DNA of 64,000 nucleotides from the human T2T-CHM13v2.0 reference genome, Homo sapiens, in the NCBI RefSeq assembly GCF_009914755.1, contig NC_060927.1. One strand, written 5' to 3'. Both the position numbers and the translations under genes were made by a program. How positions within the stretch are numbered: the first letter of the stretch is position 1; each line of letters begins with the position of its first letter. The notes under the pieces were generated by a model. The model worked only from the letters and a program-made list of their open reading frames with translations. It did no database searches and had not been told where the DNA came from. Below are positions 52,629 through 58,063 of this stretch, piece after piece.

Positions 52629-54815
52629 AAATTATTTTGGGACTGTCACATTTTGACGGACTATTTTGATTGAAAAATATGTTTCAGTAACCATAACTTT
52701 CTTCTGCCCAAACTTATTTTAATATTTAAAAACTTCAGATATATTCTAAATTAAAGAGCTACACTTAATTATAAAAAGTAAATGTTTGCTTAAAATTAAT
52801 TTGCATACATAAACATTTCACAAAAATTTTACGGTGTTTCTATAAAATTTCTACAAATTCCAAATAAAATTAAGATCTCTATCTAGATTACTTCAGAAAA
52901 ATATATTGCTGTCTAGAAAGTAAATGGTCCTTTAGATGTTTGGTATCCAACTTGACTATTTATCAATTTTCCAGAAAACTGCTTATACTTTGCCTTCCTT
53001 TTCAATATTTATATTAGTGTTTTAGATTTAAAAGTGATTTTCTTGTAGCAAGTATGACACTATGTTAAGGAAGAAAATGTGTAAATTCACATTGCTTAGT
53101 AACAAGCTTATGTTAATATTTTACACCTCAACCATGAAAGAAAGTGGTATTAAGCTTACATATAATTTATCCAGTTAATTTACAGAAACACCTCTCCATA
53201 ATAAAAGAAGCTTCACTTCACAGCTTTTATTGTCAGAAAATATCGTTTATATTACCTATAAGGATATTATAATATTTGATCTAGATTATTATATTTGTAA
53301 GAATTGCCTGTAATTTGGTTGTATTTTAATTAATACAGAATCAACTTAGATATGATAAAGCTAAATCCAATGAAATATATATGCTAGATCTTAAGATAAG
53401 GTTTAATTAATGATATTGCACACCAGATTCTATCCATCATATAAACTATTGTGATCAGTCATATCATACTGCAAATTGGCAAAGGAGGTTGTTGCAATAG
53501 TTGTTTTAGAGACCTTCAGATTTTCATTTTATACAGAGATATTTTTATATCTATATTAATTTTGTTAATGATAATTAAATAGCAAAAAACTGAAATATAA
53601 TCAGATTTTATATACACAATCTACTTTACAAGAAAGATCCATAATAAAATAAATTCTCAAATTATTTTAGCTTGTTATTCTTTCCAACTTTATATTAGTT
53701 TTAGCTAAAATTAAGAATTTCCACCTAAAACATCTATAATCTCTTAGTAAATATGGAATACTTCTTAAGTATATCCTGACATGCTTTTACTAACTGGAAG
53801 TTCGTCATTTCTACTTAATCCTTCTGAACTTAACATTTTCATTATGGCTTATTTATATATACAGAGATAAATTTGTATTCAAAATAACATAATTTTTACT
53901 TGTATATTTCCTCATGCTAAGATGTATTTTACTTTTGGAAATAGGTTTAATGGATCTTTACTAACTATAATAATCTGTTTTCATGAGTTTCAAAGAGTAT
54001 AGACTTTAATGTTGATGTATATTGATAATCACCTATTTTATATTGAACTTGTGATTGAAACTTAACTTTTTTTTACATTTTCCTAGCATTTTATTTGTTA
54101 ATATATATTTTTCAGGGTGTCAGTGTATTCTTTTCCAATTTTTAAGCTTTCACATACATGGATGTTCTATTTATTTTTACCCTTGTTTTCTTAAATAATT
54201 TCTACAACTTGAACACTGTTCAAAGCATTTTGCTGTATTATTTATGTCCCAATATATGGTGCAGTATATACCTATACATTGTCAATTCAGGGAAATTACA
54301 CCAGAGACATGACTATGTCATAGACATGACTATAGTCTATGACTATAGACACAAAAATCTGGCTCAACTCTCAGGTACTATCTGGACTTATGCTGGTACA
54401 ATTTTTACTAATATATCCTGAAAGAAATTTTATTTGAGGAATAAAAATATTTTATATAGCTGACGTTCACTGAAGGGTTCTATTTAAAGTGCTGATTATA
54501 AGGAAAGTACATCAGTTGCTATTTCATTTATCTAAAAGATTTCTCTGTACATAGTTTTATTTTGTTTTATTTTTAGATGATTTTCTAAGGCAGTTGGCTT
54601 TCTAAGAAAACACTAATGTATCAATAATCCAATAGTTCATAGTTATATCTTCTTATGAAGAAAACATAAATATCTGAAGTTTGAAAATGGAAATCAACAA
54701 TTAATAGTACCTTGTTTAAGAGAGATCAAATTTATCTTTCAAATTTTGACAAAAAAAATATAAAAGTGAATATGTGATATAATGGTGGATCAACTCTTAA
54801 GAAAGAAGTATTTTG

Positions 54816-56688
54816 CTCTCCCTCCCTCTCCCCCCCCCTCCCCCTCTCCCGCTCCCCACGGTCTCCCTCTCCCTCTCTTTCCACGGTCTCCCTCTGATGC
54901 CGAGCCGAAGCTGGACTGTACTGCCGCCATCTCGGCTCATTGCAACCTCCCTGCCTGATTCTCCTGCCTCAGCCTGCCGAGTGCCTGCGATTGCAGGTGC
55001 GCGCCGCACGCCTGACTGGCTTTTGTATTTTTTTGGTGGAGACGGGGTTTCGCTGTGTTGGCTGGGCTGGTCTCCAGCTCCTAACTGCGAGTGATCCGCC
55101 AGCCTCGGCCTCCCCAGGTGCCCGGATTGCAGACGGAGTCTCGTTCACTCAGTGCTCAATGGTGCCCAGGCTGGAGTGCAGTGGCGTGATCTGGGCTCGC
55201 AACAACCTCCACCTCCCAGCCGCCTGCCTTGGCCTCCCAAAGTGCGAGATTGCAGCCTCTGCCTGGCTGCCACCCCGTCTGGGAAGTGAGGAGCGTCTCT
55301 GCCTGGCCGCCCATCGTCTGGGATGTGAGGAGCCCCTCTGCCTGGCTGCCCAGTCTGGGAAGTGAGGAGCGCCTCTTCCCGGCCGCCATCCCATCTAGGA
55401 AGTGAGGAGCGTCTCTGCCCCGCCGCCCATCGTCTGAGATGTGGGGAGCGCCTCTGCCCCACCGCCCCGTCTGGGACGTGAGGAGCGCCTCTGCCCGGCC
55501 ACGACCCTGTCTGGGAGGTGAGGAGAGTCTCTGCCTGGCTGCCCTGTCTGAGAAGTGAGGAGCTCCTCCGCCCGGCAGCCGCCCTGTCTGAGAAGTGAGA
55601 AGCCCCTCTGCCCGGCAGCCACCCCGTCTGGGAAGTGAGGAGTGTCTCCGCCCGGCAGCCACCCCGTCCAGGAGGGAGGTGGGGGTCAGCCCCCACCCGG
55701 CCAGCCACCCCGTCAGGGAGGGAGGTGGGGGGTCAGCCCCCGCCTGGCCAGCCACCCCGTCCGGGAGGGAAGTGGGGGGTCAGCCCCTGCCCAGCCAGCC
55801 GCCCCATCTGGGAGGGAGGTGGGGGGTCAGCTCCTGCCGGGCCAGCCGCCCTGTCCGGGAGGGAGGTGGGGGGTCAGCCCCCGCCCAGCCAGCCGCCCCG
55901 TCCGGGAGGGAAGTGGGGGGTCAGCCCCTGCCCGGCCAGCCGCCCTGTCCGGGAGGGAGGTGGGGGGTCAGTCCCTGCCCGGCCAGCCGCCCTGTCCAGG
56001 AGGGAGGTGGGGGGTCAGCCCCCGCCCGGCCAGCCGCCCCATCCGGGAGGGAGGTGGGGGGGCGCCTCCACCCGGCCAGCCGCCCCGTCCGGGAGGTGGG
56101 GGGCACCTCTGCCCGGCCGTCCCTTCTGGGAAGTGAGGAACCCCTCTGCCTGGCCACCACCCCGTCTGGGAGGTGTACCCAACAGCTCATTGAGAACGGG
56201 CCTTGATGACAATGGCGGTTTCGTGGAACAGAAAAGGGGGAAAGGTGGGGAAAAGATTGAGAAATCAGATGGTTGCTGTGTGTGTGTAGAAAGAAGTAGA
56301 CATGGGAGACTTTTCATTTTGTTCTGTACTAAGAAAAATTCTTCTGCCTTGGGATCCTGCTGATCTATGACCTTACCCCCAACCCTGTGCTCTCTGAAAC
56401 ATGTGCTGTGTCCACTCAGGGTTAAATGGATTAAGGGCAGTGCAAGATGTGCTTTGTTAAACAGATGCTTGAAGGCAGCATGCTCGTTAAGAGTCATCAC
56501 CACTCCCTAATCTCAAGTACCCAGGGACACAAACACTGCGGAAGGCCGCAGGGTCCTCTGCCTAGGAAAACCAGAGACCTTTGTTCACTTGTTTATCTGC
56601 TGACCTTCCCTCCACTATTGTCCTATGACCCTGCCAAATCCCCCTCTGCGAGAAACACCCAAGAATGATCAATTAAAAAAAAAAAAAA
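54816..56688 (+). mobile_element. SVA retrotransposon body (older, SVA_C/D-like)
   Basis: CT-rich head, Alu-like domain, VNTR about 55256-56172, SINE-R about 56173-56674, A14; more CpG decay than the first SVA. Confidence 0.96.
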
Positions 56689-57280
56689 GAAATCAGTGGG
56701 AAATCCAGACTGCATAGAAGGAACTGTATATCTTGGCCTCTTTTAAGATTAAGACAATATCTACATAGGCCTTATTACAGTCAACATACTGTTCTTGTAA
56801 CTGGAGAGCAGCCAAATCTTTCTTTCCAACTCACACTCAAGCTAAATTCCTAACTTCTAAAAACTGGCTGACTGGTTGGTAGGAAGAAACACTGCACCTT
56901 GACAATGTTCTTAGAGTCACTGTCCATGTTGTAACCTATTTAATTCTTGGATTCACAAACACTGGAGTCATTTCGTTATTATACTTTGATGGTGAAATCT
57001 GTACTCACCTCAAACACTTCCTCCTAGACTCACACAATTTCTCCCCTTCCCAAATATTCTTGGGGTCTGTCTTCAATTATAAATGCTCAGAATACGAGTT
57101 CCATCTTTTCATTTTCCCCACAGTTCTTTGCTCAGACTCAAATATTGCGTGTAATGCCACTGCCACTCGGTCGGCCTGGCAAATATTTATCTTTCAAGCT
57201 TATCCTGATCACCCTTCAAGAAGGCGAGCTATAGTAAGACATAATAAAATGATTGTTGTTTTTAAAAAAAAAAAAAAAAA
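56689..57280 (+). mobile_element. 3' transduced sequence plus terminal poly(A) of the SVA insertion
   Basis: TSD aagaaagaagtattttg at 54799-54815 recurs exactly at 57281-57297; AATAAA 57243-57248 precedes poly(A) starting at 57264. Confidence 0.93.
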
Positions 57281-58063
57281 AAGAAAGAAGTATTTTGAAT
57301 CATTGGAAGGCTATGTAGTTTTAATCTTAGCTCATATTTTACTCATTCTTTGGTGATAGGTTCTTATGAAAATCTCTTCTATATATATAAAAAAAAGAAA
57401 TTTTACAGGGCTATATCTGACCACAGAGGAGAAATCCAACATTTCAGTGATAATACCCGTAGTTGTTTGAAAAAAAATTAAAAGAAATCTAATTACCACG
57501 ATTAAGAAAGTAATTGGAAGAGTTAAAATTGCTCAGTCTTGGTAATCATAAGCAGAATAGCCTGATATTCAACATTTCCAGCCACAGCTATTGCTTTATC
57601 AGATGACTGACATAAGAGTTACATCATTCTTGTTGAGAGAAGGATAACATTAGGACAAATAAGTGGCACTGACGAAATAATTACCTAGCTTGTTAAAACT
57701 AATCTGCATGATTAATGATTTTTTAAAGCAATGAGACTCTTATATGTGCCAATAAAGAAATCATAGAACACAATGGAGAGTAGTTTTGTGAAATGAATAG
57801 TCGTTTAAATAAAAAATTTTTCTTTTCTTTTTTAAAACAGTGCTTTAATTTTAAAATTTAAATAACAAAACTTCACTATAGAGGGTCCTTATAACTCCTC
57901 CATTTCAATTTTTTATCACTTATCACAGAAATCTAGACAGCAGTGGTACTTTTTTGTTATAATCTCACTGATATATAGGGTCAAGTAGTAGTCATTAGCA
58001 ACATCCTTCATTTATTTCTCAGGTAATCACATCTCTGGAAATGTCCTTTCAAAAATATGTTTG

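What the first reader, a model, noticed from the sequence alone, without database searches (positions are those of the whole stretch)
54799..57297. SVA-mediated 3' transduction: 575 bp of DNA imported from another locus
Seen: the 17-bp sequence AAGAAAGAAGTATTTTG precedes the SVA (54799-54815, after TT|) and is absent after the SVA's own A14 (56675-56688). It recurs exactly at 57281-57297, after 575 bp of non-SVA sequence (56689-57263), an AATAAA (57243-57248) and a second poly(A) starting 15 nt later. Established: this double-tail structure is diagnostic of 3' transduction, the route by which SVA duplicated the AMAC1/SLC35G genes. Inference: the true insertion is 54816-57280, the cargo is a copy of the source element's downstream flank, and it is a barcode for the parent SVA and any siblings. 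Repeat annotation would treat it as native unique DNA.
Basis: partly seen in the sequence, partly recalled or inferred. Interest (0 to 1): 0.8.

Follow-up and report, generated by a model that had tools for sequence, protein, structure and literature searches.

The report
SVA insertion carrying chr2-derived 3' cargo
A full-length SVA retrotransposon on human chromosome 3 dragged along about 575 bases copied from chromosome 2 when it jumped, an ordinary example of a well-known process whose parent element is no longer present in this genome.

Summary
An exact 17-bp direct repeat (54799-54815, 57281-57297) brackets one insertion: a full-length SVA (54816-56688, ending ATT+A14), 575 bp of non-SVA DNA (56689-57263), an AATAAA (57243-57248) and a 17-A tail starting 15 nt later.

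The cargo has one other copy in T2T-CHM13, at chr2:38390836-38391409. It is 98% identical (12 differences in 574) and runs on there with no poly(A).

The twist is that CHM13 has no SVA at or within 10 kb of the chr2 site. The chr2 site is an "empty" source. Its junction is TT|GAAA, an L1-endonuclease-type site and the only such hexamer in the 2 kb upstream of the poly(A) site. This favours a real, now-lost source SVA over reverse-transcriptase template switching.

A related SVA on chr5 has the same build: ATT+A14, a 585-bp cargo from chr4 and an empty source at TT|AAAA.

Divergence of about 2% suggests an insertion several million years old. The cargo has no ORF and no RNA family match. The region is a gene desert.

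Verdict: a genuine, ordinary SVA 3' transduction of low novelty.

The parts
54799..54815 (+). 5' target-site duplication, AAGAAAGAAGTATTTTG; the target reads ctcTT|AAGAAA, an L1-endonuclease-type site
54816..54877 (+). SVA 5' end: degenerate (CCCTCT)n hexamer region
   Evidence: Tandem Repeats Finder gives period 6 at 54822-54877
54878..55254 (+). SVA Alu-like region (boundaries approximate)
   Evidence: Matches ordinary Alus at 68-96%. It is 92-95% identical to the same part of 25 other SVAs. There is a weak sub-threshold SRP/Alu match on the minus strand at 55037-55220.
55255..56139 (+). SVA VNTR (units of about 40 and 47 bp; the 3' boundary is approximate)
   Evidence: 55255-55668 period 40; 55648-56096 period 47; family D1
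56140..56674 (+). SVA SINE-R region
   Evidence: 97.2-98.3% identical over about 533 bp to 29 other SVA copies. A 445-bp query gave 1532 first-look candidates; all 40 scored were 98-100%.
56672..56677 (+). The SVA's own poly(A) hexamer, here the ATTAAA variant rather than AATAAA
   Evidence: The variant 3' end occurs at 303 genome places, against 664 for the AATAAA form.
56675..56688 (+). Internal A14: the tail of the source element, read through
56689..57263 (+). Transduced cargo copied from chr2:38390836-38391409
   Evidence: 12 differences in 574. No ORF of 40 aa or more and no Rfam match.
57243..57248 (+). AATAAA used for polyadenylation of the read-through transcript
   Evidence: It is the only AATAAA or ATTAAA in the cargo and is conserved at the chr2 source.
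57264..57280 (+). Terminal poly(A), 17 A, absent at the chr2 source
57281..57297 (+). 3' target-site duplication, identical to 54799-54815

Best explanation
A single L1-mediated (target-primed reverse transcription) insertion spans 54816-57280.

Proposed sequence of events:
1. A full-length source SVA once sat on chromosome 2, immediately upstream of CHM13 chr2:38390836, in + orientation.
2. Its transcript ran past the SVA's own ATTAAA signal and genomic A-tail.
3. The transcript continued through 574 bp of chr2 flank and was cleaved about 15 nt after the next AATAAA.
4. L1 ORF2p nicked chr3 at ctcTT|AAGAAA and reverse-transcribed the whole RNA.
5. This left SVA + A14 + cargo + A17 flanked by a 17-bp target-site duplication.
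6. The source SVA is not in CHM13. It most likely never reached fixation and was lost.

Shown: the anatomy, the chr2 origin of the cargo, the direction of copying, the empty source site and its endonuclease-type junction.

Inferred: that an SVA once occupied the chr2 site, the read-through itself, and the age.
For: 1. An exact 17-bp direct repeat brackets the whole composite and occurs nowhere else in the window. 0 of 100 shuffles gave 2 matches.

2. There are two A-tracts. The second lies 15 nt after an AATAAA. A review names two A-tracts as a typical feature of a 3' transduction (PMC4859970, passages).

3. The cargo matches chr2:38390836-38391409 at 98% over 574 of 575 bases. The whole-genome search gave 3 matches: this copy, the chr2 locus, and a 48-bp local chr2 repeat. 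A 25-mer from the cargo start hits 2 of 2 places, chr2 and here.

4. chr2 carries the same AATAAA but continues into unrelated sequence where chr3 has poly(A). So chr2 is the donor.

5. The SVA alone has no flanking repeat of its own (...GTATTTTG | SVA | GAAATCAG...). This argues for one event, not two.

6. The chr2 junction reads ccTT|GAAATC.
   - TT[AG]AAA fits 27 of 23,568 positions in the chr2 flanks.
   - It fits 1 of 2,068 positions in the 2 kb upstream of the poly(A) site, and that one is the junction.
   - An SVA inserted there by L1 endonuclease explains this.

7. A related SVA (L010, chr5:63.90 Mb) has the same build.
   - It has ATT+A14, a 585-bp cargo, A9 and the repeat AAGAATGCAAGC.
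   - Its cargo matches chr4:80792865-80793449 with 10 differences in 585.
   - That source is also empty, and its junction is gTT|AAAATTTATG.

8. In a survey of polymorphic SVAs, source elements were found for 84% of cargo-carrying insertions. For the rest the origin could be inferred although no SVA was present, and the authors suggest loss from the population or low allele frequency (PMC12593883, passages).
Against: - No SVA is seen at the chr2 source. blastn of the 1,873-bp SVA against 23.6 kb around the site gave hits only to SVA positions 71-440, the Alu-like part, and these were ordinary Alus. Nothing matched the VNTR or SINE-R. So the defining progenitor is inferred, not observed.
- The source's own target-site duplication cannot be delimited.
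- With about 2% divergence the event is probably old. An SVA present at the source then and absent now needs loss by drift or a precise deletion.
- A candidate splice acceptor (ctgccctcag) lies 10 nt upstream of the cargo start on chr2. The cargo could therefore be most of a terminal exon of a chr2 transcript, which would also suit a template-switch origin. I could not see chr2 annotation.
- No other ape or human assembly could be searched.
Confidence: 0.85

Rival explanations
1. Template-switch chimera. During one retrotransposition event L1 reverse transcriptase first copied the 3' end of a polyadenylated chr2 transcript. It then jumped to the poly(A) tail of an SVA RNA. This gives the same SVA-A(n)-cargo-A(n) order without any SVA ever having sat on chr2.
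For: - CHM13 has no SVA at or within 10 kb of the chr2 donor site. The same holds directly upstream of the chr4 donor of the sister element.
- Template switching between an mRNA and an SVA RNA has been proposed for an SVA-CKS1B copy (PMC12593883, passages).
- A splice-acceptor-like ctgccctcag lies 10 nt upstream of the cargo start on chr2.
Against: - Both donor junctions sit exactly at TT|RAAA endonuclease-type sites, with background frequencies of about 0.05-0.1%. A jump has no reason to prefer the TT on the uncopied side.
- On chr2 the first copied base is G, not A. Microhomology with an A-tail therefore does not explain the breakpoint.
- An A-tract separates the SVA from the cargo. The published template-switch case was argued partly from the absence of a poly(A) tail separating its concatenated 3' cargo segments.
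- From general knowledge, not a count made here: read-through transductions are far more common than such chimeras.
Confidence: 0.09
2. Two separate insertions. A 5'-truncated retrocopy of a chr2 transcript landed first and made the 17-bp duplication. An SVA later landed exactly at the retrocopy's 5' edge.
For: Only the empty source site. Orphan transductions without an SVA are described (PMC12593883, passages).
Against: - The SVA has no target-site duplication of its own. The 17-bp repeat brackets the whole composite.
- The SVA would have had to insert at the exact junction base, without a duplication.
Confidence: 0.02
3. DNA-level duplication or gene conversion between chr2 and chr3, unrelated to retrotransposition.
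For: None beyond the 98% identity.
Against: The chr3 copy ends in a poly(A) placed 15 nt after AATAAA that chr2 lacks. It abuts an SVA tail and lies inside a target-site duplication.
Confidence: 0.01

Closest known systems
SVA-mediated 3' transduction (for example the events that duplicated AMAC1/SLC35G genes)
   Same: An SVA, an internal A-tract, unique flank from another locus, a poly(A) signal, a second tail, and one target-site duplication round the whole. The T2T repeat preprint describes the SLC35G5 to SLC35G4 case as an SVA_C 3' transduction.
   Different: The cargo here carries no gene: there is no ORF of 40 aa or more and no RNA family match. It landed in a gene desert. The progenitor SVA is absent from the assembly.
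L1 3' transduction
   Same: The same read-through and target-primed reverse transcription logic, and two A-tracts as a typical feature (PMC4859970, passages).
   Different: The carrier is the non-autonomous SVA, mobilised in trans by L1.
Cargo-carrying SVAs with no SVA found at the inferred origin
   Same: In PMC12593883, source elements were found for 84% of cargo-carrying polymorphic SVAs. For the rest the origin could be inferred although no SVA was present, and this is attributed to loss or low allele frequency.
   Different: That survey covers young polymorphic insertions. This one is about 2% diverged from its donor and so probably much older.
SVA-CKS1B template-switch chimera
   Same: An SVA followed on its 3' side by sequence from another transcript.
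   Different: That case lacks a poly(A) tail separating its concatenated 3' cargo segments and carries a processed, 5'-truncated mRNA. Here an A14 separates the SVA from the cargo, the cargo is collinear with unspliced genomic DNA, and the donor breakpoint is an endonuclease-type site.

Membership tests
SVA retrotransposon | Composite order: (CCCTCT)n, Alu-like region, VNTR, SINE-R, poly(A) | tested here: met
   The hexamer region and VNTR were found by Tandem Repeats Finder. The Alu-like part matches Alus and other SVAs at 92-95%. The SINE-R is 97-99% identical to many SVA copies that end in A-tails. The tail is A14. The subfamily (A-F) was not determined, because no reference consensus was available.
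L1-mediated (target-primed) insertion | Target-site duplication of about 7-20 bp flanking the insertion | tested here: met
   An exact 17-bp repeat, with only 2 matches in the window and 0 of 100 shuffles reaching 2.
L1-mediated (target-primed) insertion | Insertion at a TT|AAAA-like endonuclease site, with a 3' poly(A) | tested here: met
   The target reads ctcTT|AAGAAA and the terminal tail is A17. The consensus motif itself is recalled, not taken from a call.
3' transduction | Two A-tracts: the element's own tail, then non-element sequence ending in a second tail downstream of a poly(A) signal | tested here: met
   A14 at 56675-56688, AATAAA at 57243-57248, and A17 from 57264. The hallmark is stated in PMC4859970.
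3' transduction | The cargo has a donor locus elsewhere that continues without poly(A) | tested here: met
   chr2:38390836-38391409, 98% identical, 574 of 575 bases. chr2 reads ...gttgttttaagacatttt... where chr3 has poly(A).
3' transduction | A progenitor element sits directly upstream of the donor sequence | tested here: not met
   No SVA VNTR or SINE-R match within 10 kb either side in CHM13, and the sequence upstream of the junction is unique DNA. This is one haploid genome only. Absence now does not show absence when the copy was made, so I keep the filing. Published surveys also accept inferred origins that have no SVA.
3' transduction | The progenitor's own 3' target-site duplication forms the start of the cargo | not testable with these tools
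   This needs the filled source allele. What can be said is that the cargo begins at a TT|GAAA site, as a duplication made by L1 endonuclease would.
Template-switch chimeric retrocopy | The 3' part is a 5'-truncated processed RNA joined directly to the 3' end of a second RNA, with a breakpoint unrelated to endonuclease sites | tested here: inconclusive
   The cargo is unspliced and collinear with genomic DNA. The breakpoints of this element and its sister fall on TT|RAAA sites, which argues against this family. Transcript annotation of chr2 could not be consulted.

The most novel reading that the evidence does not exclude
This element and its chr5 relative may be the surviving traces of short-lived, never-fixed source SVAs. 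Such sources would have read through their own poly(A) signal and then vanished. The chr2 and chr4 sites would then be 'ghost' source loci, recognisable only from the cargo their offspring carry. The link to a weak own signal is untested here. Both elements carry the ATTAAA hexamer, which is found at 303 genome places against 664 for the AATAAA form.
Probability: 0.3. Interest if true: 0.35.

Novelty: already known. Interest (0 to 1): 0.18.

Why it matters
It matters little beyond annotation. The 575 bp at 56689-57263 should be labelled as retrotransposed chr2 sequence, not native chr3 DNA. It is a paralogue that could mislead read mapping or orthology calls.

It also records that an active SVA once sat at chr2:38390835/6.

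SVA 3' transduction is a textbook process, and CHM13 has been screened for such events genome-wide. I could not check whether this particular event is in those tables.

The cargo carries no gene, and no gene is annotated in the window. A functional consequence is therefore unlikely.

Tried and rejected

- **Papers not held under the ids I tried:**
  - Xing et al. 2006.
  - Damert et al. 2009.
  - The id I recalled for the journal version of the T2T repeat paper. A title search did not find that version either.
  - What I say of these papers is recalled or taken from other papers' reference lists.

- **Supplements:**
  - The supplement of PMC9311842 was too large to read.
  - The one held supplementary file of PMC6191304 does not contain the 17-mer.
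  - Supplement 1 of PMC12593883 has no hit for 'chr2-383', 'chr2 383', 'ATL2' or the cargo start. This is a weak negative, because I do not know the GRCh38 coordinate.

- **Siblings with the same cargo:** none. The whole-genome search gave only this copy, the chr2 donor and a 48-bp local chr2 repeat. The 25-mer hit 2 of 2 places.

- **A private marker in the ATTAAA 3' end:** rejected. 303 genome places share it.

- **Whether ATTAAA-type SVAs carry long cargo more often:**
  - 30 loci were scanned. Six had no 5' end inside the locus.
  - A flanking repeat more than 100 bp past the SVA end was found in 2 of 8 ATT-type loci (two of the eight are duplicates of each other).
  - It was found in 1 of the 16 others whose 5' end lay inside the locus.
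  - The sample is too small to conclude anything.

- **Identical A14 in three ATT-type elements:**
  - I considered it as a sign of a shared RNA 3' end.
  - I set it aside because up to four of the sister element's A's can come from its chr4 donor, and old A-runs shrink to similar lengths (recalled).

- **Function in the cargo:** Rfam and ORF scans found nothing.
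Full report
**Observation**

- AAGAAAGAAGTATTTTG lies at 54799-54815, after ...caactcTT.
- An SVA follows from 54816 and ends ...caagaatgatcaATT plus 14 A (56675-56688; A-run counted).
- Next come 575 bp of non-SVA sequence (56689-57263), with an AATAAA at 57243-57248.
- An A-run of 17 starts at 57264, and the same 17-mer recurs at 57281-57297.

With up to 2 mismatches allowed, the 17-mer has exactly these 2 matches in the 64-kb window. 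The expected number was 0.09, and 0 of 100 dinucleotide shuffles gave 2. The repeat finder lists the pair as family D9.

The SVA alone has no flanking repeat. The sequence before it ends GTATTTTG, and the sequence after its A14 begins GAAATCAG. The duplication therefore belongs to the whole 54816-57280 block.

**Anatomy of the element**

| Part | Coordinates | Evidence |
|---|---|---|
| Degenerate hexamer region | 54822-54877 | |
| Alu-like region | about 54878-55254 | |
| VNTR, units of 40 and 47 bp | 55255-56096 | |
| SINE-R | about 56140-56674 | |

- The Alu-like stretch matches ordinary Alus at 68-96%. It is 92-95% identical to the same part of 25 other SVAs; 2 further hits at 71-72% were plain Alus. 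It also gives a weak, sub-threshold SRP/Alu match on the minus strand (19.9 bits against a gathering score of 70).
- A 445-bp SINE-R query found 1532 first-look candidates in the genome. All 40 that were scored were 98-100% identical.
- Over 535 bp, 29 other copies are 97.2-98.3% identical.

This is a full-length SVA. I could not assign a subfamily, because no reference consensus was available.

**Origin of the cargo**

A search of the window's own genome with 56689-57263 gave 3 matches:
- the cargo itself;
- chr2:38390836-38391409 on the + strand, 98% identical over 574 of 575 bases;
- a 48-bp, 86% local repeat just downstream on chr2.

A 25-mer from the cargo start hits 2 of 2 places, chr2 and here.

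The pairwise alignment has 12 differences in 574 and no gaps.
- Three are at CpG sites.
- Three are adjacent (56957-56959).

chr2 keeps the AATAAA and reads on as ...gttgttttaagacattttgttttg..., where chr3 has poly(A). chr2 is therefore the donor and chr3 the retrocopy.

The used AATAAA is the only AATAAA or ATTAAA in the cargo. The read-through stopped at the first canonical signal.

The refutation condition (single-copy cargo) is not met.

**The twist: an empty source**

Directly upstream of the chr2 match the sequence is unique DNA...ctgccctcaggaatgccTT|GAAATCAGTGG....

blastn of the 1,873-bp SVA against 23.6 kb around the site gave hits only to SVA positions 71-440. These were ordinary Alus. 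Nothing matched the VNTR or SINE-R. CHM13 therefore has no progenitor SVA there.

Two readings remain:
- a source SVA that was polymorphic and later lost, or that is absent from this haplotype;
- reverse-transcriptase template switching from a chr2 transcript onto an SVA RNA.

**Telling the two apart**

The junction favours a lost source.
- A source SVA inserted by L1 endonuclease would make the cargo begin at a TT|AAAA-like site (motif recalled). The chr2 junction is TT|GAAA.
- TT[AG]AAA fits 27 of 23,568 positions in the chr2 flanks.
- It fits 1 of 2,068 positions in the 2 kb upstream of the poly(A) site, and that one is the junction.
- The first copied base is G. Microhomology with an A-tail therefore does not explain the breakpoint.

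A second, independent case behaves the same way. Among the 30 best SINE-R loci, 8 (this window included) end CAATTAAAA rather than CAATAAAA.

One of them, L010 at chr5:63.90 Mb, has the same build.
- It has ATT+A14, a 585-bp non-SVA stretch, A9 and the repeat AAGAATGCAAGC on both sides.
- Its cargo matches chr4:80792865-80793449 with 10 differences in 585.
- That donor site is also empty and reads gTT|AAAATTTATGAG.
- A diverged local paralogue 1.4 kb upstream on chr4 is continuous across the same point. The empty arrangement there is therefore native.

Two breakpoints on TT|RAAA sites are hard to get from template jumps.

The published SVA template-switch case was argued partly from the absence of a poly(A) tail separating its concatenated 3' cargo segments (PMC12593883, passages). 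Here an A14 separates the SVA from the cargo.

The same paper found source elements for 84% of cargo-carrying polymorphic SVAs. For the rest, the origin could be inferred although no SVA was present, and the authors attribute this to loss or low allele frequency.

I put read-through from a lost source at about 0.85 and template switching at about 0.09.

**Points against my reading**

- The progenitor is inferred, not seen.
- A splice-acceptor-like ctgccctcag lies 10 nt upstream of the cargo start on chr2. The cargo might therefore be most of a terminal exon.
- I could not consult chr2 annotation or any other human or ape assembly.
- Only one haploid genome was searched.

**Age (inference)**

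The cargo differs from its donor by 12 of 574 (2.1%), and the sister's cargo by 10 of 585 (1.7%). SINE-R copies differ pairwise by about 2%.

Against the roughly 1.2% human-chimpanzee divergence (recalled), this suggests an insertion older than that split. With only 12 differences the range is wide.

**Function**

- The cargo has no ORF of 40 aa or more and no Rfam match.
- No gene is annotated in the window (hub note).
- The repeat mask stops at 56700.

**Comparison with what is known**

Two A-tracts, with the source's target-site duplication carried inside the cargo, are given as typical of a 3' transduction in PMC4859970 (passages).

The T2T repeat preprint screened all 7,069 SVAs annotated in CHM13 and reports 55 highest-confidence SVA 3' transductions. 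It describes the SLC35G case as an SVA_C 3' transduction (passages). Its tables were not readable, so I cannot say whether this event is listed.

The kind is fully known and the instance is ordinary. The only mild points of interest are the orphaned source and the look-alike sister element.

Noticed in passing
L010 (G000:C5:63901402-63904846, SVA on the minus strand); donor in L039 (G000:C4:80792865-80793449): A second SVA with the same ATT+A14 end carries a 585-bp 3' cargo from chr4 (10 differences in 585), A9 and the repeat AAGAATGCAAGC. Its donor site is also empty in CHM13 and reads TT|AAAA.
   Followed up: yes
L009 (G000:C6:100821505-100824949, SVA on the minus strand): ATT+A14 is followed by TTAAAGTAG, then an A-rich tail, then the 14-bp repeat AAGAAGCTTAATTG that also precedes the SVA. 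This may be a 9-bp ultra-short transduction.
   Followed up: partly
genome-wide; window 56672-56677: The SVA 3' end with ATTAAA (CCCAAGAATGATCAATTAAAAAA) occurs at 303 places in CHM13. The AATAAA form with the same flank occurs at 664 places. The variant therefore marks a large sub-lineage and is not a private marker.
   Followed up: partly
L002 2075-2125 (G000:C2:38391413-38391460): Just past the poly(A) site the chr2 donor repeats 48 bp of the cargo (gtaactggagagcagccaaat...) at 86% identity. This is a small local duplication.
   Followed up: no
L039 20-150 versus 1440-1575 (chr4): A stretch of about 135 bp spanning the chr4 donor junction is duplicated 1.4 kb upstream at about 91% identity. 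An Alu and other sequence lie between the two copies.
   Followed up: partly
L021 (G000:C22:5936871-5940315) and L035 (G000:C21:5828437-5831881): Two ATT-type SVAs have identical 5' and 3' flanks on the short arms of chr22 and chr21. They are presumably one insertion copied by segmental duplication. No target-site duplication was found within the loci.
   Followed up: no
L012, L027 and L032 (AATAAA-type SVAs): L012 and L032 show short non-A stretches (about 12-15 bp) between two A-tracts. L027 has a flanking repeat 217 bp past the SVA end. These suggest further short or medium 3' transductions.
   Followed up: no
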